A stretch of 35,783 nucleotides of DNA, from UHGV virus genome UHGV-0117379. The stretch is one strand, 5' to 3'. Shown here one piece after another: positions 681 to 22,331 of this stretch (position 1 is its first letter; every line of letters starts with the position of its first letter). The DNA comes from a virus. The notes under the pieces were generated by a model, which did no database searches, was not told where the DNA came from, and saw only the letters and a program-made list of their open reading frames with translations. The translations under genes and the position numbers were made by a program.

Positions 681-714
681 AAAACAATAAGTTAGATTAA
701 AAACAATAAGTTAG
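681..714. repeat. Two direct copies of AAAACAATAAGTTAG (681-695 and 700-714), 19-bp period, in the AT-rich region next to the integrase 3' end
   Basis: Read directly from the sequence; 15/15 identical. Could be integrase arm-type or IHF-associated sites, or host intergenic sequence. Confidence 0.45.
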
Positions 715-735
715 GTTGGTGGTCAGTGGTGGTTA

Positions 736-1788
736 TTACGGGGTAATGCCAACCGCTGCCGCCACTTTGTCGCCACTTGGCAGCGTTGCCAGAGGATTGA
801 AACGGAGCGCCGTTTCCAGATGATCCGGTGCCAGATGTGCGTAACGCATAGTCATTTTTATATCGTGGTGTCCGAGAATTTTTTGTAAGGCCAGAATGTT
901 TCCACCCGACATCATGAAGTGCGCCGCAAACGTATGGCGCAGAACGTGTGTGAGTTGACCGCGAGGGAGCACGATAGACGTTTTTTCCATCACGGATAAA
1001 AATTGAAAATAGCAGTCTGTGAAGAAATTGAACCCATCAAGCGCCATGATCTCTTCGTAAAGCTCTTTACTGATAGGGATGCTTCTGTTTTTCTTCCCCT
1101 TCGTTCTGACAAAGGTAATTCGGTATTTGGTCACCTGTGAGCGGGTAAGATTTACGGCTTCACGCCAGCGTGCGCCTGTGCTTAAGCATATCTTAACTAC
1201 CAGTGCCAGAATTGGGTCCTGACGTTTGCAATCAGCCAGCAATTCAACAATCTGCTCATGGGTAAGCCATGCCATCTCTTTTTCTGCGATGGTGAATTTT
1301 CGCATGTTCTCCAGTGGGTTCGGATACGACCATTCGCCCAGACGGGATAGTTCGCTAAAAACACTACTTAGATAGCTTTGCTCCAGGTTAATGGTGACCG
1401 GGCTTGCTCCTTTCTTCCATTTCTCGCTGAAGTAGATCTCGCCTGTCAGGCGTTTATCTCGATAGTGGGCAAACATTTTAGAGGTGAGATCGGTTGCAAG
1501 AGGATTGCCTAGAGCGTCAACCATCAGCAGCAATTTGTCATAGACATGCTGTCCAGCAGTCAGAGATTTACCATGTAGTTTGAACCATAGCTCAACCACG
1601 TCTTTCAGGGTTCGACGATCCACTGATTCGCCCAGCCAGGGCTTTGATTCGGTTTCTTCCATCGTGTGACGCTCAAAAGCCAGAGCTTCGCCTTTGGTGG
1701 CGAATTGTTTACGCACACGACGCCCACTTCGTCCGGCGGGGTAACATTCGCAAAGCCATTTCCCTGTGGTGAGTTTTCGTACTGCCAT
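736..1788 (-). CDS. int: Tyrosine integrase (P2 Int family)
   Basis: ORF track 736..1944; N-terminus MAVRKLTTGKW aligns with the P2 Int N-terminus, so start set at ATG 1788 (GGAGGG RBS upstream on the minus strand). C-terminal HxxR...Y catalytic region (LRHTFAAHFMMSGGNILALQKILGHHDIKMTMRYAH). Confidence 0.9.
   Translation of the reverse strand: MAVRKLTTGKWLCECYPAGRSGRRVRKQFATKGEALAFERHTMEETESKPWLGESVDRRTLKDVVELWFKLHGKSLTAGQHVYDKLLLMVDALGNPLATDLTSKMFAHYRDKRLTGEIYFSEKWKKGASPVTINLEQSYLSSVFSELSRLGEWSYPNPLENMRKFTIAEKEMAWLTHEQIVELLADCKRQDPILALVVKICLSTGARWREAVNLTRSQVTKYRITFVRTKGKKNRSIPISKELYEEIMALDGFNFFTDCYFQFLSVMEKTSIVLPRGQLTHVLRHTFAAHFMMSGGNILALQKILGHHDIKMTMRYAHLAPDHLETALRFNPLATLPSGDKVAAAVGITP
756..775. 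other. Candidate attL core (CTGCCGCCACTTTGTCGCCA)
   Basis: 19/20 match to 35736-35755; overlaps the last codons of the integrase gene. Confidence 0.45.
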
Positions 1789-1976
1789 AAAAAATGCCCT
1801 CCAGTAGAGAGCATTTTTACTGTATGTATAACCAGTGTCAATGTATGAAATCCTACGACCATACATCTCACTGAAGCCATAATGAAGTTGGCTATTCTTT
1901 TTGCTATGTGAGCATGTAACTTTTGCGGTTAACCTGCGGCTCATTTTTATTTTAGACGCAGATATAAAAACAAAAG

Positions 1977-2168
1977 TTATCGTGAGTTTTTAGTACAGAT
2001 TTTTTTGGATTTACTAATAGTTCCATCATTGCAAACGAATTTGCCATCTGAGGTACAGTGAGAAACACCTCCCTTTTTCCCTGAGCAGGGATAATTTCTA
2101 GCATAGGTAGTTAGTGGGTTTAATAACAAAGAACATGACAAAACCACAAAAAATACCTTACCAAGCAT
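1977..2168 (-). CDS. Small secreted cysteine-rich protein (63 aa), unknown function
   Basis: ATG at 2168 with GGGAGGA RBS; N-terminal signal-peptide-like hydrophobic stretch [23 protein letters not shown]; mature part has 6 Cys; AT-rich; sits between cI and int on the same strand. Confidence 0.6.
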
Positions 2169-2183
2169 AGTTTCCTCCCGGTA

Positions 2184-2840
2184 CTATTTAACATACTTGA
2201 CTGTTAAACTTATAATTTTACCAATTATTTCAATGTCTTCTATCTTGCATTCGAAGGCTCTGTTTCCACCCTCGACGAAGATTCTTCCACCGGGTAAACG
2301 AGTAATGTCACGGATCGTTATTTCGCCATCAATACTTATTACCCATTTACCATCACGTATATCATCAAATTCTTTATCACAAATAAATTCAGAATTGTTA
2401 TCTGTGATGACAAAAGGTTTTTTAAACGTAGAGGGTAGAAATCCCTTATCAAAAATATAAAAACCGTCTTTCTGCAATGCTCCATCAGACAATAAATATT
2501 TTTCTACTTCTATAGTATTTGTATTTGCTGATGCTTGCTTTGAACCATGCCCTGTTGTTAGCCAATTAAGCGAGGTGCCCGTTTCAAGGGCGCACTGGAT
2601 TACCCAATCTGCTGGAAAAATATCACGCATATAGCGCGTTGCCATGGTGCTCTTAGAAACACCTAAATGATCACAGAGAGCCTGACGAGTACCGAACCCA
2701 TATGCTTCAACTAAACGTTCTATGGCTTTCTTACCGCCGCTATTGAAATCCACAAGTCCTCCAAAGAAATCCAAAATTCGTTGACAGATTCCAAAAGCGA
2801 TCTTAAAGTTGAACCAGAAGTGTTCTTTTGGAGCCTTCAC
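2184..2840 (-). CDS. cI: Phage CI-type repressor (186 CI-like, HTH N-terminal domain)
   Basis: HTH-like segment LGVSKSTMATRYMRD; position and orientation match the P2/186 immunity repressor, divergent from apl. The ORF starts at GTG 2840; true start uncertain. Confidence 0.7.
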   Translation of the reverse strand: MKAPKEHFWFNFKIAFGICQRILDFFGGLVDFNSGGKKAIERLVEAYGFGTRQALCDHLGVSKSTMATRYMRDIFPADWVIQCALETGTSLNWLTTGHGSKQASANTNTIEVEKYLLSDGALQKDGFYIFDKGFLPSTFKKPFVITDNNSEFICDKEFDDIRDGKWVISIDGEITIRDITRLPGGRIFVEGGNRAFECKIEDIEIIGKIISLTVKYVK

Positions 2841-2898
2841 TACTAATCACGACAAACAACGGCTCGCCACAAGCCATATCTAGAAGGAATGTTGCCTT

Positions 2899-3102
2899 AT
2901 GACACCTAACATTTCAATTACTCTGAATACACCACATGTCACAATCGAACGTTATAGCGAACTGACTGGCCTTTCTATTGATACGATTAACGACATGTTG
3001 GCTGATGGCCGACTACCTCGTCATCGTCTTCGTAAAGACAAAAAACGTGAAAAGGTAATGATTAACCTGGCTGCTCTGACTGTTGATGCTTTGTCTGCTT
3101 AA
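2899..3102 (+). CDS. apl: Apl/Cox-type excisionase / regulator
   Basis: 67-aa ORF with ATG 2899 and AAGGA RBS, first gene of the rightward early operon opposite cI. Confidence 0.7.
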
Positions 3103-3166
3103 TAGACGTCTATTTTCGCAATAAGACGCTGAGTTCGATTTTGCGATAAGTTCGGAGTTGAAAACC

Positions 3167-3676
3167 ATGTTTGATTACCAAGTTTCCAAACATCCACATT
3201 TTGATGAAGCCTGTCGTGCATTCGCACTGCGCCACAATCTGGTGCAACTGGCAGAACGTGCGGGCATGAATGTGCAGATTCTGCGGAACAAGCTGAACCC
3301 AGCTCAACCTCATTTATTAACCGCACCAGAAATCTGGCTGCTTACCGATCTGACTGAAGATTCAACGTTGGTAGATGGTTTTCTGGCACAGATTCATTGT
3401 CTGCCATGTGTACCGATTAATGAGGTAGCAAAAGAGAAACTGCCACATTACGTCATGAGTGCAACCGCAGAGATCGGGCGTGTTGCTGCAGGTGCGGTAT
3501 CTGGCGATGTAAAAACCAGTGCAGGTCGTCGTGATGCTATCAGCAGCATTAACTCTGTAACACGACTGATGGCGCTGGCGGCTGTTTCATTGCAGGCCCG
3601 TTTACAGGCTAATCCTGCGATGGCGAGTGCAGTTGATACCGTGACTGGCCTCGGTGCTTCATTCGGTTTGCTGTGA
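3167..3676 (+). CDS. cII: Phage CII-type regulator (186 CII-like)
   Basis: Track ORF starts at TTG 3158; ATG 3167 (GGAG RBS) gives 169 aa beginning [20 protein letters not shown], which I remember as closely matching 186 CII. Confidence 0.8.
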
Positions 3677-3683
3677 GGTGCTT

Positions 3684-3980
3684 ATGCTGACGAAAGAACC
3701 ATCATTTGCATCGCTGCTGGTAAAACAAAGCCCGGCAATGCACTACGGTCACGGCTGGATCATGGGTGAGGATGGTAAACGCTGGCATCCGTGCCGTTCA
3801 CAAGATGAATTGCTGTCTGAATTGACCACGGGGAAACGGAGAAAGTCAAAATGTATGCAGCGGAAAGTGAAGTGGTTTATCAGTTTCGTTACAGAGGGGA
3901 GAGTTATTCAGTACCTGAAGATGATTTGCTCTGTTGTTATCCGTCGTTGTCGGGCGATGGCAGTTACTTTTTCACGCTAA
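3684..3980 (+). CDS. Hypothetical early protein
   Basis: ATG 3684 follows GAGGTG RBS directly after the cII stop. The second half of this frame is Cys/Arg-rich and low in complexity and overlaps ORF 3851..4075, so the 3' extent is uncertain. Confidence 0.4.
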   Translation: MLTKEPSFASLLVKQSPAMHYGHGWIMGEDGKRWHPCRSQDELLSELTTGKRRKSKCMQRKVKWFISFVTEGRVIQYLKMICSVVIRRCRAMAVTFSR

Positions 3981-9403: not shown

Positions 9404-9622
9404 ATGTCAAGTATCGCCGCATTGAAGCTGGGTAATCCAGTTGAACGTTTGGCACGGGTTCTGAAAGAGAACCAGGACAAGCTCAATCTGAGTAAAGATG
9501 GTTTTGTGTCCGTAGATTTGTCCAACGAAGAAGCTATGAAAGCCATCCGAGATCAGATGGATAAGCTTGAAGGCATCAAAACGAGCACTGTTAAAGCAAA
9601 ATATTATTACAGAACCCGATAA
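9404..9622 (+). CDS. Hypothetical small soluble protein (72 aa)
   Basis: ATG 9404 with AAGGAGGGG RBS; stop overlaps the next start (TAATG). Confidence 0.6.
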   Translation: MSSIAALKLGNPVERLARVLKENQDKLNLSKDGFVSVDLSNEEAMKAIRDQMDKLEGIKTSTVKAKYYYRTR

Positions 9623-10464
9623 TGGCAACATTACTTTTAGCAGTGATTTTGGTTAGTGGTTTTATATATGTAAACCTATCACTTTCAACACGTTATAGAT
9701 ATAAGCGTTCCAATGGCTGGGACGCTTATTTTTTTGTGGCTGCATGGGGAATTGTCTTTTTCCTCGCTGGCGGCTTCCTTACCTTCGCTCTTAACATCAG
9801 CGGTGGGTTTCGCTGGTTTTCTAATGCGCTGAATCTGACTCCAGACAGCTTTAACGGGATGTTATCCACCACAACCGATAAACCGCAGCGCATCAATGAA
9901 ATTAAGCAAATCGCGTGGGTTGTGATTTCAATAGTTCTCGCGGCGCTGTTCGGTTGGCTAAACAAACGCCGTACTTCAAAAGGGGATCGCCGTTGGGATG
10001 CACTGGCAAAGGCAGTGGGAAACAATGCTTTTGAATCGCTGCTCATGGAAGCATCAGCTCGCCAGTTTCCTATCATTGCTACACTTTCATCACGCAAAAT
10101 CTATGTAGGGCTGGTGACTTGCCCTGCGTTGGAAAATGGATTGTCGGAACACCTTGAAATTCTCCCCTTGCTGAGCGGATATCGTGATAAAGACGACCTA
10201 ACGATAAATATCACGACAAACTATCATCAGCACTATCTTGATAGCGGTGTTATCAATGGGATGTCGCGCCTGAATATCCAGGATTTCCGTGTGCTTCTCC
10301 CTAAAGATGAAGTTGAAACCATCTCGTTTTTTGATACTGAAACGTATAACAAATTTAAAGAAAACGAAGCGCGTGACCGGAAAGACTGCCGCAAGTTGGG
10401 TGGTAAAAAGCCATCCGCACGCAGGAGAAAGACTGCTGGCGACGCAGAGCAGGGTAGTGCATGA
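9622..10464 (+). CDS. Membrane protein with three predicted N-terminal TM helices, unknown function
   Basis: Hydrophobic segments LLLAVILVSGFIYV, AYFFVAAWGIVFFLAGGFLTFAL and IAWVVISIVLAALFGWL, then a roughly 170-aa soluble domain; AT-rich. Confidence 0.65.
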   Translation: MATLLLAVILVSGFIYVNLSLSTRYRYKRSNGWDAYFFVAAWGIVFFLAGGFLTFALNISGGFRWFSNALNLTPDSFNGMLSTTTDKPQRINEIKQIAWVVISIVLAALFGWLNKRRTSKGDRRWDALAKAVGNNAFESLLMEASARQFPIIATLSSRKIYVGLVTCPALENGLSEHLEILPLLSGYRDKDDLTINITTNYHQHYLDSGVINGMSRLNIQDFRVLLPKDEVETISFFDTETYNKFKENEARDRKDCRKLGGKKPSARRRKTAGDAEQGSA

Positions 10465-10512
10465 CTATGCTGCATGAATTTGCATGATCGTTTGAGGATC
10501 GTTTTAGCTCCG

Positions 10513-10537
10513 GCCCGCCAGTTCAGGCGGGCTTTTT
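10513..10537 (+). terminator. Rho-independent terminator (GCCCGC-loop-GCGGGC followed by TTTTT)
   Basis: Read directly: stem 10513-10518/10527-10532, T-run 10533-10537, about 50 nt after the membrane-protein stop. Confidence 0.6.
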
Positions 10538-10581
10538 CATATCTCATGCAGGTGCATGAAAACCACTACACAAAGCGGGCA

Positions 10582-10600
10582 GGCGTGGCGGGGATACGAG
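10582..10600. other. Putative cos cohesive-end sequence GGCGTGGCGGGGATACGAG
   Basis: First 13 nt identical to the P2/186 cohesive-end consensus GGCG(A/T)GGCGGGGAAAGCA as I remember it (15/19 to 186). Preceded by five copies of TGCATGA. Confidence 0.4.
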
Positions 10601-10665
10601 CGCGCGCTCATTACTTTTATAATTCTAGGGTTATAATACAGGGCTATCTTTCTAGGAGAAAACAC

Positions 10666-12318
10666 ATGTCCTTAGAGTTTATCAAAGAACAGTTGTCAGA
10701 TTTTATCTCATCTACAGAACCAGAAGTAATGGCTATACAGGGTGAATGGGGAATTGGTAAAACCTATACTTGGAATACGTTCCTAAAAGATAATAAAGAT
10801 AAGGTTGCATTTAATAGATATAGTTATGTCTCTCTTTTTGGTATAAATTCACTAGATTCTTTAAAGTATTCTATTTTTGAGAATGCAATTACAAAGGAAT
10901 ATATTGGAAATAAACCTGATTTGGAGACAGCAACAACAAACGCAAGTGGACTTTTTGAATCGTTTTCTCGAAAAGCCGCAGGTTTGTTAAAAGAAGCTCC
11001 TGTTGTAAAAAACTTCTCTACGACACTTGAAGCAATGTCATTTCTGACCGTTTCTAAAATGATTGTAGTAATAGATGACTTAGAAAGGCGTGGCAAAAAC
11101 TTAGATGTTAAAGATGTTTTAGGGCTAGTATCTCTATTAAAGGAGCAGAAGGATTGTAAGGTGGTTCTATTGCTTAACAATGGCACAGCTAGTATGGAGG
11201 ATTATTCTACTTATAAAGAAAAGGTCATTGATAGAGATATCACTTACAATCCAACACCAGAAGAATGCGCAGATATAGCCTATAAAGGTGATTTTCATGT
11301 TTATAACTTGTTAAGTAAATATTCCATTTCTTTAGGTATCAAGAATATTCGAATCTTAAAAAAGATAGAACGTTTTTTCGTGTCCTTAACACCAAATATT
11401 ATAGGTGATGTTGAGACAATTTCAAATGAAGTTGCGCATTCATTAACTCTGTATTGTTGGAGCCATTACGGATTTTCTCCAGAGGGAGATGTGCCATCAC
11501 TAGAATATATTAGGGGAGTGAGGAATATATATACTTATAATGACAAGGAAGAAGGCCATGAGAAAGTCTGGCTTAATACCTTGCTTAAATATGGATATAG
11601 AAAAACGAATGATCTTGATGAGGTTCTTATTGATATGGTTAGATATGGCTATCTTGATAAGAGCAGTTTCCAAAGACAAATAAGCCTAAGGAATGAGGAG
11701 ATTACGCGTGATAATAAACGAGGTTCCTTATCTGAGGCATGGCAGTTCTTTCATAATTCATTTGATGACAATCAAAATCAGGTTGTTGACAAGCTATATC
11801 AAGCGGTGGTTGATGGGATGAAGTATGTGACTCCAAGTGATTTAGATAATGTTGTCGGACTATATAGGGATTTCGGAGAGAATGCTAAGGCGAGTGAATT
11901 GATTGAACAGTTTATTAATTATGGTAACGATGCTCTAAAGGAATATGTTCAATCTATTTATGTGAATGTTCATCCCGTAAGAGATGCTGAGTTGTTGTCA
12001 AAAATTCAAGCCTATTCTAATATTATAAATATTGATGGTTCAATATATGATGTTCTTAAGAAATTATCAGGTCAGAATGGTTGGTCTGATAGACATGAGG
12101 AAATATTGGATGCTGCTTCAGTAGATGACTACTATCAATTATTTAAAAATGTCATTCTTGATGGTGGTGATTCAATAATAGCTACGGCGCTTAAATTCGG
12201 AAATTATAGTAATGGTTCTGATAGAATGAATCGTATAGGGAAAAAGGCAAGGGATGCCTTGATAAGAATTGGAGATGAATCGGCGATTAATAAAATACGT
12301 GTAAGGCGATTTTTGTGA
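10666..12318 (+). CDS. KAP-family P-loop NTPase (candidate defence cargo)
   Basis: ATG 10666 with AGGAG RBS (track ORF starts at 10474). Walker A GEWGIGKT and KAP-type Walker B VVIDDLERR; AT-rich; own TATAAT boxes (10618-10623, 10632-10637) and a downstream terminator. Confidence 0.75.
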   Translation: MSLEFIKEQLSDFISSTEPEVMAIQGEWGIGKTYTWNTFLKDNKDKVAFNRYSYVSLFGINSLDSLKYSIFENAITKEYIGNKPDLETATTNASGLFESFSRKAAGLLKEAPVVKNFSTTLEAMSFLTVSKMIVVIDDLERRGKNLDVKDVLGLVSLLKEQKDCKVVLLLNNGTASMEDYSTYKEKVIDRDITYNPTPEECADIAYKGDFHVYNLLSKYSISLGIKNIRILKKIERFFVSLTPNIIGDVETISNEVAHSLTLYCWSHYGFSPEGDVPSLEYIRGVRNIYTYNDKEEGHEKVWLNTLLKYGYRKTNDLDEVLIDMVRYGYLDKSSFQRQISLRNEEITRDNKRGSLSEAWQFFHNSFDDNQNQVVDKLYQAVVDGMKYVTPSDLDNVVGLYRDFGENAKASELIEQFINYGNDALKEYVQSIYVNVHPVRDAELLSKIQAYSNIINIDGSIYDVLKKLSGQNGWSDRHEEILDAASVDDYYQLFKNVILDGGDSIIATALKFGNYSNGSDRMNRIGKKARDALIRIGDESAINKIRVRRFL

Positions 12319-20819: not shown

Positions 20820-22331
20820 ATGCGCCCCAAAATTGGTGATTTTGAATTTGGTGAGGTTTATGGAGAGAATGAGGTATTATTTCTCGATAATTACTCGAAA
20901 TATTTTTATGATATAAATAATTCATTAAGTAAACTTGATAGAAAAAATAAAATGCTCGTAATTGGCAGGAAGGGGACGGGTAAGACATTGCTTGTTAATG
21001 TCTACTGTAACGCCAAGCGAAAAAATAATTATATTGCAGTTGTGGAATCATTAAAAGATTTTGTTTTTCATGAACTTACTCACTTTCAGGGGCAGGATGT
21101 GTCTTCCACAAAATATGTACCAATTTTCAAGTGGATGATATTGGTCAATCTTGCTAAGAATATTGTAAGTAATAAAAAAGGATTTAGTGAGGATAAAATA
21201 GTTCATTTGGAAAGTTTTTTACGTTCTTTTGGCCATGTCGCGGGCGAGTTAAGGCCTGAGCAAACAGTTGAAATAACTAGGGAGTACCAAGCGTCGGGTG
21301 AGGTTGGTATCGGATTTAGATTCCCAGTATTACGTGGTGAAGCCAAAGCAAAAGATGGTGAGGTCGAGAAAACAAAAGAAACAAAAAAGAATTATTTGGA
21401 ATGTATGGAATCTTTGCAGTGTTTTATTGTTGACATGCTAAAAGAGAGTAATAAAAAAATATATGTATTTTATGATGAGTTAGATGATAAGTTTGATGCA
21501 ACAGTTGAATATAAAAATGCAATGATAAGTTTTTTAAATGCTGTTGTGTCAATTAATAAAACTCTAATGCAAAATAAAATAGATGCTAAAATTGGTGCAG
21601 TTATTCGTCATGATATAATAAATACTTTTTCATCGCCGAATATTAATAAAATCATTGAAGATAACTCTGTTACACTTGATTGGTGTTCTGCTGGAGAACG
21701 AGCAAGTGATTCTGAGATTTTTGATATGATTGCTTTTAAGATCAAAAACTCCACTGATTATTATAATGATTTAAATGGTTCTAATTTGTTCGGGAAAATT
21801 TTCACTGAGAGAGTTGCAGGTGAGCATAGCTCTATTTATATTTTACATAGAACTCTAGGTCGCCCAAGAGATGCCGTTAGGATGCTAACTTATATTCAAG
21901 ATGAATATGGAGAAAATACTGAAAGATTTGAAAGTTCCATGTTTACAAAGATTTCTAAAAAATACTCATCTTATCTTTTACGTGAAATTAGATCTGAGCT
22001 TGCGGGACATTTAAGTGATTCAGAAATAGATGACAGTTTTTCTCTTTTACGTTCAGTAAAAAAAAGAGGTTTCACTCCACATTTAATCAAGGAAAAATTT
22101 GAAGAATTGAAGTTAGGAGATGGTACATTAACGCTTAATAAAATACTGAGTTGTTTATTTAAAGTCGGTGCTATCGGGAATGTACTCAGGAGATCTAAAA
22201 CAGATGGCGGAGATGTTTATTTGTGGTCATTTAATGATGAAGATTTAGAAATGGACCCAACGTTGAATTTTGAAATACACTGTGGTTTGTGGGATGCACT
22301 AGGAATTATCAAGCCTAAACTTAGGCAATAA
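20820..22331 (+). CDS. P-loop NTPase (503 aa), candidate single-gene defence moron
   Basis: Walker A GRKGTGKT and Walker B IYVFYDELDD; AT-rich; own promoter and a perfect terminator; inserted between S and V. Confidence 0.8.
   Translation: MRPKIGDFEFGEVYGENEVLFLDNYSKYFYDINNSLSKLDRKNKMLVIGRKGTGKTLLVNVYCNAKRKNNYIAVVESLKDFVFHELTHFQGQDVSSTKYVPIFKWMILVNLAKNIVSNKKGFSEDKIVHLESFLRSFGHVAGELRPEQTVEITREYQASGEVGIGFRFPVLRGEAKAKDGEVEKTKETKKNYLECMESLQCFIVDMLKESNKKIYVFYDELDDKFDATVEYKNAMISFLNAVVSINKTLMQNKIDAKIGAVIRHDIINTFSSPNINKIIEDNSVTLDWCSAGERASDSEIFDMIAFKIKNSTDYYNDLNGSNLFGKIFTERVAGEHSSIYILHRTLGRPRDAVRMLTYIQDEYGENTERFESSMFTKISKKYSSYLLREIRSELAGHLSDSEIDDSFSLLRSVKKRGFTPHLIKEKFEELKLGDGTLTLNKILSCLFKVGAIGNVLRRSKTDGGDVYLWSFNDEDLEMDPTLNFEIHCGLWDALGIIKPKLRQ

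What the first reader, a model, noticed from the sequence alone, without database searches (positions are those of the whole stretch)
1977..2168. Small secreted cysteine-rich protein encoded between cI and int: possible lysogenic-conversion factor
A 63-aa ORF with a strong RBS, a signal-peptide-like N-terminus and 6 cysteines in the 40-aa mature part. It is AT-rich and lies on the lysogenic transcript strand between repressor and integrase, a slot that is usually empty. Lysogen-expressed secreted peptides can be toxins, immunity factors or receptor blockers.
Basis: inference. Interest (0 to 1): 0.5.

Follow-up and report, generated by a model that had tools for sequence, protein, structure and literature searches.

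The report
Prophage-borne YdcA-family periplasmic mini-protein
The ORF is a real, strongly conserved gene for a tiny exported, disulfide-bonded protein of the already-annotated but functionally unknown YdcA family, carried as cargo between the repressor and integrase genes of a 186-like E. coli prophage; it is related to a subunit of the Legionella type IV secretion machine and may act at the cell envelope, but its function has not been tested.

Summary
The 63-aa ORF at 1977-2168(-) is real. It passes the curated cut-off of NCBIfam NF007463 ('YdcA family protein'), matches phrog_6000, and is under strong purifying selection (pN/pS 0.03-0.06). It occurs in 628 of 5,426 complete E. coli genomes, including BL21.

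The 40-aa mature peptide has 4 conserved Cys, not 6; a fifth, unconserved Cys lies in the signal peptide.

The gene starts 15 nt after the cI stop, has its own GGGAGG RBS, and no terminator is predicted before int. It therefore probably rides the lysogenic transcript. The cI-int slot is a variable cargo site:
- empty in 186, RE-2010 and ESSI2_ev129;
- PD-Lambda-1 (a defence gene) in sister phages with the same int;
- the periplasmic exclusion protein Glo in Vibrio K139;
- a YdcA homologue again in Yersinia prophages and, unannotated, in Haemophilus HP2/S2.

New here: the domain is homologous to each lobe of Dis2, an outer-membrane-cap subunit of the Legionella Dot/Icm T4SS that its describers called species-specific (hhalign 95%). 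It also occurs as an N-terminal module on periplasmic nucleases of three superfamilies and on a T6SS VasL domain.

Best guess: a non-catalytic periplasmic binding module that changes the lysogen's envelope, most plausibly for entry exclusion. This is inferred, not shown.

The parts
1977..2168 (-). ydcA-like CDS (63 aa plus stop): [63 protein letters not shown]
   Evidence: ORF list. NCBIfam NF007463 115.8 bits, above its cut-off of 93. phrog_6000 E=2e-34. PGAP names the identical protein WP_000900883.1 'YdcA family protein'. pN/pS 0.03-0.06.
2100..2168 (-). Signal-peptide coding part (residues 1-23; predicted SPase I cleavage after T-Y-A23)
   Evidence: Rule-based reading of the sequence. Homologues have variable hydrophobic N-termini that always end in an AxA-type site directly before the conserved [KRA]-N-Y-P-C. 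In the homologue Dis2 the modelled chain begins just after the equivalent site. No SignalP run was possible.
1980..2099 (-). Mature 40-aa peptide: 4.29 kDa, pI 9.7, 9 K/R against 2 D/E, 4 conserved Cys (probably two disulfides); the YdcA/Dis2-lobe domain
   Evidence: AF2 model pLDDT 81, beta-hairpin mini-domain. hhalign against Dis2 lobes 95.4%. Disulfide pairing is inferred from the periplasmic location and from the disulfides seen in Dis2.
2174..2179 (-). Shine-Dalgarno GGGAGG, 5 nt upstream of the ATG
   Evidence: Sequence; invariant in the window, BL21 and APEC alleles.
2184..2753 (-). CI-type immunity repressor, first gene of the presumed lysogenic operon; its stop codon is 15 nt before the ydcA-like ATG
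   Evidence: Pfam Phage_CI_repr 3e-31 and Phage_CI_C 5e-29; PGAP coordinates.
1789..1976 (-). 188-nt AT-rich spacer between the ydcA-like stop and the int start. No minus-strand terminator is predicted. It holds a promoter-like TTGACA-17-AAAAAT at 1841->1813 that could serve int.
   Evidence: Consensus scan only; conserved in three alleles; GC 36.2%.
736..1788 (-). P2-type tyrosine integrase, last gene of the presumed lysogenic operon
   Evidence: Pfam Int_N 3e-32 and Phage_integrase 7e-22; PGAP.
1849..2862 (.). Mosaic module (cI + ydcA-like + spacer) bounded by homology breakpoints against other phages
   Evidence: Phages with the same int allele (813R9, KP12, 4LV2017) align only up to window 1848. 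Klebsiella phages align only from window 2863 onwards.

Best explanation
What it is (well supported): a prophage-borne member of the YdcA family.
- The 63-aa precursor carries a Sec/SPase I signal peptide.
- The product is a 40-aa, 4.3-kDa, strongly basic periplasmic mini-protein with four conserved cysteines, probably forming two disulfides.
- It is a cargo gene in the variable slot between cI and int of a 186-like prophage.
- It starts 15 nt after the cI stop, has its own strong RBS, and no terminator is predicted before int. It is therefore most likely made continuously in lysogens from the lysogenic promoter, together with CI and Int (inferred from layout and from the phage 186 and K139 operon maps).

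How it most likely works (inferred):
- The domain has no catalytic features.
- It is homologous to each lobe of Dis2, a soluble periplasmic subunit that docks on outer-membrane lipoproteins (DotC, DotD, DotK) of the Legionella Dot/Icm T4SS.
- In other bacteria the same domain is the N-terminal module of periplasmic or secreted nucleases of three unrelated superfamilies, and of a T6SS VasL-domain protein.
- I therefore read it as a small binding or docking module for a conserved target at the periplasmic face of the outer membrane. That target could be an envelope-spanning translocation apparatus or the polyanion (DNA) passing through it.
- The free-standing prophage copy would act by occupancy. 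It would change the lysogen's envelope so that entry of foreign DNA (superinfecting phage, possibly conjugation) is hindered. This would parallel the non-homologous periplasmic exclusion protein Glo, encoded at the same position in K139.
For: Identity and constraint:
- NF007463 above its cut-off, and phrog_6000.
- pN/pS 0.03-0.06.
- 628 of 5,426 E. coli genomes carry it, and it is intact in the decayed BL21 remnant.
- Strongly conserved mature motif with variable signal peptides.

Operon layout:
-.
- Phage 186 and K139 annotate a single lysogenic operon running from cI through int.

Cargo slot:
- Empty in 186, RE-2010 and ESSI2_ev129.
- PD-Lambda-1, E=3e-120, in 813R9 and KP12, which have the same int and att site.
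- Glo, 'periplasmic protein; involved in phage exclusion', in K139.
- Published cI-int / int-primase defence hotspots.

Recurrence of the YdcA gene in the same slot in diverged phages:
- HP2/S2, where it is unannotated.
- Three Yersinia species, with int about 47% and cI about 37% identical to the window's.
- Two E. coli CI alleles only 86% identical.

Dis2 homology:
- Best PDB hit by profile.
- Foldseek ranks 1 and 2 of 350,542 chains, TM 0.62, 36-39% identity.
- hhalign 95.4%, E=2e-8.
- Dis2 orthologues carry the same precomputed PF27300 domain.
- Dis2 biology from PMC8486379 and PMC12716638.

Fusions:
- SNase, Endonuclease_NS (three members) and PLDc_2.
- VasL.
- A copy adjacent to T6SS tssJ-tssE.
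Against: - No experiment links any YdcA-family protein to phage exclusion, DNA binding or envelope docking.
- There is no PADLOC hit.
- Hotspot location is only guilt by association, and such slots also carry non-defence genes.
- The chromosomal E. coli YdcA has only been linked to acid induction and 3-hydroxypropionate sensitivity, which fits a stress role as well.
- Genomic neighbourhoods are heterogeneous, with no conserved partner.
- Loss of Dis2 has only subtle effects.
- E. coli has no Dot/Icm system, so the docking target here is unknown.
- Transcription from the lysogenic promoter, export and disulfide formation are all inferred.
Confidence: 0.4

Rival explanations
1. Host-fitness (lysogenic-conversion) factor. 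The prophage copy does what the chromosomal YdcA does, contributing to envelope or acid/organic-acid stress tolerance, and benefits the lysogen without acting on other phages or on incoming DNA.
For: - E. coli ydcA is reported as YdcI-regulated and acid-induced, and its deletion made E. coli W sensitive to 300 mM 3-hydroxypropionate (PMC7642389).
- The family is mostly chromosomal, spread over alpha-, beta- and gamma-proteobacteria in varied contexts.
- The gene is kept intact in the decayed BL21 prophage remnant.
- No defence-database hit.
Against: - The window protein fails the model I take to be the K-12 YdcA equivalog (NF007462, 68.5 bits against a cut-off of 118), so it is a distinct paralogue.
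- The stress phenotype is a single report with no mechanism.
- This reading does not explain the recurrent fusion to nucleases, the link to secretion-machine components, or the repeated capture into the cI-int slot of diverged phages.
Confidence: 0.25
2. Neutral or selfish passenger with no present function for phage or host. It would simply be carried along with one immunity module (cI + ydcA-like) that spreads by recombination.
For: - The gene is bounded by mosaic breakpoints and travels with cI.
- Many relatives do without it.
- The module is AT-rich and looks foreign.
Against: - Strong purifying selection: 10-11 synonymous against 1-2 non-synonymous changes.
- Near-invariant mature motif from Enterobacterales to Moraxella, Haemophilus, Brucella and Comamonas.
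- It is retained while neighbouring prophage genes decay in BL21.
- The same slot is occupied in phages whose cI and int have diverged to 37-47% identity.
Confidence: 0.1
3. Periplasmic metal-binding or redox mini-protein. The four Cys plus the conserved His/Asp would bind Cu or Zn instead of forming structural disulfides.
For: - Conserved C, H and D residues.
- A DUF2946 protein lies immediately downstream in 6 of 76 species-level loci. That DUF2946 is copper-associated is my recollection only and was not checked.
- Weak sub-threshold hits to zinc-ribbon or TerY_C metal-binding profiles in tandem members.
Against: - In the homologue Dis2 all cysteines are seen as disulfides in a 2.8 A map.
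- The periplasm is oxidising.
- All metal-domain hits are far below their thresholds.
- No metal-homeostasis genes lie near the prophage copy.
Confidence: 0.07
4. Released antimicrobial or toxin-like cationic peptide (bacteriocin- or defensin-like) that acts on competitors.
For: It is small, cationic (pI 9.7) and disulfide-rich.
Against: - It has only a Sec signal peptide and no adjacent export, lysis or immunity gene.
- The family includes a chromosomal gene shared across Escherichia species genomes.
- Homologues are structural or targeting modules inside the periplasm (Dis2, nuclease fusions).
Confidence: 0.05

Closest known systems
YdcA family (E. coli K-12 YdcA; NCBIfam PRK10040 models NF007462/NF007463; PF27300 as precomputed by the search tool; PHROG 6000)
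   Same: Same architecture and motif: signal peptide followed by [12 protein letters not shown]...FVCNDG-x-S-x-SKK-x-C. It passes the curated NF007463 cut-off, and PGAP gives the identical protein this name.
   Different: It is not the chromosomal cybB-ydcA-trg type: NF007462 scores 68.5 bits against a cut-off of 118, and I take that model to be the K-12 equivalog. It is carried by a prophage in the lysogenic operon. The family has no established function.
[quoted passage not shown]
   Same: Each Dis2 lobe shares the motif order CC-x3-GG[VI]-x-x-[C/Y]-x3-G-x-[LV]VCN[DN]G-x-x-S. hhalign gives 95.4% (E=2e-8). Dis2 chains are the top two Foldseek hits. Both proteins have a Sec signal peptide and are periplasmic.
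   Different: Dis2 has two lobes and five disulfides and is a stoichiometric part of a T4SS, contacting DotC, DotD and DotK. The prophage protein is a single lobe with four Cys in a genome context without any T4SS. Dis2's own function is unknown and its loss has only subtle effects.
Glo of Vibrio phage K139 (periplasmic protein involved in phage exclusion)
   Same: Same position (between cI and int on the lysogenic PL operon of a P2/HP1-related phage), same predicted compartment, similarly small size.
   Different: No sequence relationship (hhalign probability 0.1%). Glo is 137 aa with a different composition. Exclusion is documented for Glo but not for any YdcA-family protein.
PD-Lambda-1 and other defence cargo of P2-like prophage hotspots
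   Same: It occupies exactly the same cI-int slot in prophages with the same int allele and att site next to rcdA. Published work lists cI-int and int-primase as defence hotspots.
   Different: PD-Lambda-1 is a 558-aa cytoplasmic DUF4041/T5orf172 protein. The YdcA-like protein is a 40-aa periplasmic peptide with no PADLOC match.

Membership tests
YdcA family (NCBIfam NF007463, PRK10040.1-2) | Whole-protein score above the curated cut-off of the equivalog model | tested here: met
   115.8 bits against a cut-off of 93, residues 5-63 on model positions 1-58 of 58.
YdcA family (NCBIfam NF007463, PRK10040.1-2) | N-terminal Sec signal peptide followed by the conserved four-Cys motif [12 protein letters not shown]...FVCNDG...SKSKK-C | tested here: met
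   Alignments A1-A3: C5, C15, C23 and C35 of the mature peptide are invariant or nearly so, and Ala at -1 is present in at least 90% of sequences.
Chromosomal E. coli K-12 YdcA type (NF007462, PRK10040.1-1; assignment to K-12 YdcA is my reading) | Score above the cut-off of that model, and the cybB-ydcA-trg chromosomal context | tested here: not met
   68.5 bits against a cut-off of 118. The context here is cI-ydcA-int in a prophage, whereas Escherichia species loci have a cytochrome b561 gene upstream and an MCP/Tar gene downstream.
Dis2 (Lpg0823)-type T4BSS outer-membrane-cap subunit | Sequence and fold homology of the lobe domain | tested here: met
   [not shown]
Dis2 (Lpg0823)-type T4BSS outer-membrane-cap subunit | Two tandem lobes pinned by five disulfides | tested here: not met
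   The window protein has one lobe and four mature Cys. Dis2 is described with two lobes and five disulfides.
Dis2 (Lpg0823)-type T4BSS outer-membrane-cap subunit | Physical or genomic association with a Dot/Icm-type secretion system | tested here: not met
   No T4SS gene was seen in the annotation of near-identical prophages or in the window's ORF layout. Physical association cannot be tested with these tools.
Glo-type periplasmic exclusion protein of K139-like phages | Encoded between cI and int on the lysogenic operon, with a signal peptide | tested here: met
   Layout, compared with the K139 record.
Glo-type periplasmic exclusion protein of K139-like phages | Sequence homology to Glo | tested here: not met
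   hhalign probability 0.1%.
Glo-type periplasmic exclusion protein of K139-like phages | Superinfection-exclusion phenotype | not testable with these tools
   Needs plating assays on strains with and without the gene.
Known anti-phage defence systems (PADLOC-DB v2) | Match to a defence-protein model | tested here: not met
   No family at E<=0.01.
Lipoprotein-type exclusion factors (Cor/Llp-like) | Lipobox with an invariant Cys at the signal-peptidase II site | tested here: not met
   C12 (V-L-S-C) lies only 12 residues from the N-terminus and is not conserved among homologues. The family instead ends its signal peptides in AxA. This was read by rule; no LipoP or SignalP was run.

The most novel reading that the evidence does not exclude
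The YdcA/Dis2-lobe domain is a previously unrecognised periplasmic module that recognises DNA, or the outer-membrane side of DNA/protein-translocating machines. That would explain why it sits on three kinds of periplasmic nuclease, in a T4SS cap and on a T6SS protein. The free-standing copy that P2-like prophages of E. coli, Yersinia and Haemophilus express next to their repressor would then be a new, minimal (40-aa) class of entry-exclusion factor against phage, conjugative or transforming DNA. Dis2, so far called Legionellales-specific, would be a duplicated member of this widespread family.
Probability: 0.25. Interest if true: 0.7.

Novelty: new member of a known kind. Interest (0 to 1): 0.45.

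Why it matters
The gene is common: about 12% of complete E. coli genomes carry it, including the laboratory workhorse BL21, and 520 IMG/VR viral stretches encode a relative. It is tiny and easy to test, yet its family has no assigned function.

If it is an exclusion or envelope factor, it would add a 40-residue periplasmic protein to the list of prophage-encoded defences. It would also mark the cI-int slot of enterobacterial 186-like phages as a useful place to look for more.

Independently of that, the link to Dis2 gives a first evolutionary context for a Dot/Icm component that its describers found to have no structural relatives. The nuclease and VasL fusions suggest a concrete, testable biochemical role (binding or docking) for the whole family, including E. 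coli YdcA.

Tried and rejected
- The local Pfam copy has no family for the protein. PF27300 appears only as a precomputed label in the search tool.
- Literature on 'ydcA': the plasmid pS88 ydcA (a putative adenine methylase) and the gonococcal island ydcA share the gene name only, with no indication that they belong to this family. The UniRef name 'Conjugal transfer protein' for the cluster could not be traced to any evidence.
- Acinetobacter plasmid copies lie among accessory hypothetical genes, not in T4SS operons.
- PADLOC gives no hit.
- DUF3761 circular-permutation idea (from memory): no hit even at E<=10 for a permuted construct or for natural tandem members. Dropped.
- Lipoprotein reading of C12: rejected, because the Cys is not conserved and lies too near the N-terminus.
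- K139 Glo is not homologous.
- The IMG/VR locus fetch returned only 80 identical E. coli prophage ends, so it added counts but no diversity.
- I first mapped the whole window onto strain C51. That was wrong outside 700-3700, because the window is a different mosaic, so passing notes were redone with the window's own ORFs.
- The first, full-length HMM E-value for Dis2 (3e-5) was partly due to signal-peptide alignment. It was re-tested with a mature-only profile (E=0.068) and then with profile-profile comparison.
- My first lobe alignment padded two truncated orthologues with L. pneumophila residues. I repeated it with observed sequence only and the result was the same.

Full report
**Setting**

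The window begins in the E. coli gene rcdA (TetR family, 50-613). It then runs into a 186-like (P2-family) prophage. On the minus strand lie int (736-1788), the ORF in question (1977-2168) and a CI-type repressor (2184-2753). On the plus strand follow an Apl/Cox-like gene (2899-3102), cII (3167-3676) and the early genes. Stretches that are 99-100% identical over 700-3700 occur in many E. coli chromosomes at the same site next to rcdA.

**The observation**

- A GGGAGG Shine-Dalgarno lies 5 nt upstream of the ATG and is invariant in three alleles.
- The cI stop codon is only 15 nt upstream.
- The N-terminus ([23 protein letters not shown]) has the charge, hydrophobic core and small-x-small ending of a Sec/SPase I signal peptide. 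I could not run SignalP.
- In 28-44 homologues the N-termini vary freely but always end in an AxA-type site directly before a near-invariant [K/R/A]-N-Y-P-C.
- The ORF has 35.4% GC, against 49% for int and 50.8% for the window. The neighbouring cI is also AT-rich at 38%.
- One detail is wrong. There are five cysteines in all. Four are in the 40-aa mature part and are conserved. One is in the signal peptide and is not conserved.

**Is it a real gene?**

Yes.
- It scores 115.8 bits on NCBIfam NF007463 (cut-off 93) and matches phrog_6000 at 2e-34.
- PGAP names the identical protein WP_000900883.1 'YdcA family protein'.
- Between the two E. coli allele groups (about 94% DNA identity) there are 10-11 synonymous and only 1-2 non-synonymous differences, giving pN/pS 0.03-0.06.
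- It occurs in 628 of 5,426 complete E. coli genomes.
- In BL21, the prophage has lost most of its genes (truncated cII and replication gene), yet this ORF is intact.
- 520 stretches in IMG/VR encode a relative, as do 385 loci among 185,579 species genomes. These cover alpha-, beta- and gamma-proteobacteria and Myxococcota.
- A profile search of 1.84 billion representatives finds 434 clusters.

**The slot**

In phage 186 the cI stop and the int start abut, and the record annotates one lysogenic operon from pL with its terminator beyond int. Here about 390 bp are inserted. They comprise the ORF plus a 188-nt AT-rich spacer. The spacer has no predicted minus-strand terminator and holds a conserved promoter-like element upstream of int. 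Co-transcription with cI is therefore likely, but it is inferred.

Homology to other phages breaks at window 1848 and 2863, so cI + ydcA-like behaves as one mosaic module.

A sample of relatives shows the slot is variable:

| Phage(s) | cI-int slot |
|---|---|
| 186, Salmonella RE-2010, ESSI2_ev129 | empty |
| vB_EcoM-813R9, Klebsiella KP12 (same int allele; 813R9 at the same att site) | 558-aa protein that is PD-Lambda-1 (PADLOC 3e-120; DUF4041 + T5orf172) |
| Klebsiella 4LV2017 | unknown 349-aa protein |
| Vibrio K139 | orf2 and glo ('periplasmic protein; involved in phage exclusion') |

In E. coli genomes the int allele occurs in 1,135 genomes, the ydcA-like gene in 628 and the PD-Lambda-1 gene in 164. 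I did not check that every copy lies in this slot. Rousset et al. 2022 describe a defence hotspot between cI and int in K139-like Vibrio phages. A 2026 survey places 8% of P2 defence systems between integrase and primase.

**The same gene in the same slot elsewhere**

- Haemophilus phages HP2 and S2 carry a 60-aa homologue ([60 protein letters not shown]). Its ATG overlaps the cI stop, and it precedes orf1(S) and int. It is not annotated in those records.
- Three Yersinia species have repressor (203 aa), YdcA (58 aa) and integrase (343-345 aa) in a row. Their int is about 47% and their CI about 37% identical to the window's.
- Within E. coli the 98%-identical protein is paired with CI alleles that are only 86% identical. 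They differ mainly in the N-terminal half.
- In Moraxella and Acinetobacter siphophages the gene instead lies in the head-tail module, like a moron.
- The Escherichia chromosomal gene is a different locus (cybB-ydcA-trg). The window protein fails the corresponding model, NF007462.

**The protein**

The mature peptide ([40 protein letters not shown]) is 4.29 kDa with pI 9.7. AlphaFold2, given 44 homologues, produces a small beta-hairpin domain with pLDDT 81.

*Dis2 homology.*
- A family profile finds one solved relative, chain AN of 7MUC/7MUD. This is Dis2 (Lpg0823) of the Legionella Dot/Icm T4SS outer-membrane cap.
- Part of that score came from aligned signal peptides. With a mature-only profile Dis2 is still the best PDB hit, but at E=0.068.
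- Independent tests support the link. Foldseek ranks Dis2 chains first and second of 350,542 chains (TM 0.62, 36-39% identity, probability 0.8).
- Dis2 orthologues carry the same precomputed PF27300 domain as the YdcA family.
- A profile-profile comparison of Dis2 lobes 1 and 2 with the mature YdcA profile gives 95.4% probability, E=2e-8 and 46% identity over 26 columns (the padded version is).

*What is known of Dis2.* It has two similar lobes with five disulfides and sits near the outer membrane. It contacts DotK, DotC and DotD but not the central channel. It is dispensable for complex stability and for growth in macrophages. It is described as not generally conserved outside Legionellales. 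The present result places it in a much wider family.

*Domain architectures.*
- Many family members have two or three tandem copies of the domain.
- Of 30 long members, three add an Endonuclease_NS domain (8e-33), one an SNase domain (5e-24) and one a PLD-like domain (5e-19). In each case the YdcA domain lies directly after the signal peptide.
- One member adds the C-terminal domain of T6SS VasL (4e-18).
- On a Citrobacter plasmid, a 133-aa member follows tssJ-tssE of a T6SS cluster.
- Beta-proteobacterial and Stenotrophomonas members add a second Cys module, C-x-C...CTGPRGGxYC...G-x-K-S-Y. It hits PBCV_basic_adap weakly, below that model's cut-off.

**Interpretation**

The following are shown or strongly supported:
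- family membership;
- purifying constraint;
- cargo status;
- the variable slot;
- Dis2 homology;
- the fusion partners.

The following are inferred:
- transcription from the lysogenic promoter;
- export and signal-peptide cleavage;
- disulfide formation;
- function.

The domain has no catalytic signature. It is repeatedly attached to periplasmic enzymes that act on DNA and to parts of envelope-spanning secretion machines. I therefore read it as a binding or docking module. For the free-standing, lysogen-expressed prophage copy, the most economical model is envelope modification by occupancy, with entry exclusion as the likeliest benefit. This fits its slot-mates PD-Lambda-1 and Glo.

I put about 0.4 on this overall. 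Identity and localisation are far more secure than the exclusion function. The main rival (0.25) is a host-fitness role like the one hinted at for chromosomal ydcA, which is acid-induced and whose deletion causes 3-hydroxypropionate sensitivity. Passenger, metal-binding and toxin readings are less likely, for the reasons given under the rivals.

**Novelty and score**

The protein and its family are already annotated, so the object itself is not new. The function is unknown. The useful additions are:
- the corrected description of the protein;
- the demonstration that the cI-int slot of enterobacterial 186-like prophages is a cargo and defence site;
- recurrence of this gene in that slot in E. 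coli, Yersinia and Haemophilus phages, unannotated in HP2/S2;
- the homology to Dis2;
- the nuclease and VasL fusions.

Interest is moderate at 0.45. The gene is ordinary by annotation, but it is common, cheap to test, and linked to an open question about Dot/Icm accessory subunits.

Noticed in passing
[not shown]
   Followed up: partly
L007 4172-5848 (-) (Escherichia phage vB_EcoM-813R9) and L093 3673-5349 (-) (Klebsiella phage KP12): The gene annotated 'chromosome segregation ATPase' between cI and int is PD-Lambda-1 in 813R9 (PADLOC 3e-120; DUF4041 + T5orf172). KP12 carries a gene of the same size and annotation in the same slot, which I did not scan. The 813R9 gene is found in 164 of 5,426 E. 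coli genomes.
   Followed up: partly
window 9622-10464 (+) and 10474-12318 (+): The classical P2 hotspot between the replication gene/DinI and the portal gene holds a 280-aa hypothetical protein and a 'P-loop NTPase fold protein' (PGAP start near 10666). Only 4 of 5,426 genomes share at least 80% of this stretch, so this is rare candidate defence cargo.
   Followed up: partly
window 20820-22331 (+): A 503-aa ORF lies between the virion-morphogenesis gene and baseplate gene V. From memory this is the position of P2 orf30. PGAP calls it 'P-loop ATPase, Sll1717 family'. It is present in only 9 of 5,426 genomes, including ATCC 8739.
   Followed up: partly
window 2188-2216 (+): A near-consensus sigma-70 promoter-like site (TTAACA-17-TATAAT, 11 of 12) points rightwards, antisense into the 3' end of cI, just upstream of the ydcA-like start region. 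It may be an artefact of AT-rich DNA.
   Followed up: no
L011 5926-6327 (+) (Citrobacter sp. TSA-1 plasmid NZ_CP053574) and protein P0121: YdcA-domain proteins are linked to type VI secretion. A 133-aa member lies directly after tssJ-tssE, and a 176-aa member is fused to the VasL C-terminal domain.
   Followed up: partly
L006 (E. coli BL21 NZ_CP053601, about 842.5-848.4 kb): BL21 keeps a decayed remnant of this prophage next to rcdA (int, ydcA-like, cI, truncated cII and truncated replication gene), followed by a retron St85 family effector gene. The ydcA-like gene is intact there.
   Followed up: partly
loci L149, L151, L153, L157, L158, L163, L165, L172-L175 (Stenotrophomonas, Comamonas, Variovorax, Herbaspirillum and others): A common two-module form of about 105-120 aa: the YdcA domain plus a second Cys-rich module, C-x-C...CTGPRGGxYC...G-x-K-S-Y. 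The second module weakly resembles the PBCV-specific basic adaptor domain (below the Pfam cut-off). In 6 of 76 species-level loci the next gene downstream is a DUF2946 protein.
   Followed up: no
window about 3684-3839 (+): In strains identical over 700-3700, the Fil (filamentation) family gene after cII is annotated as a truncated pseudogene.
   Followed up: no
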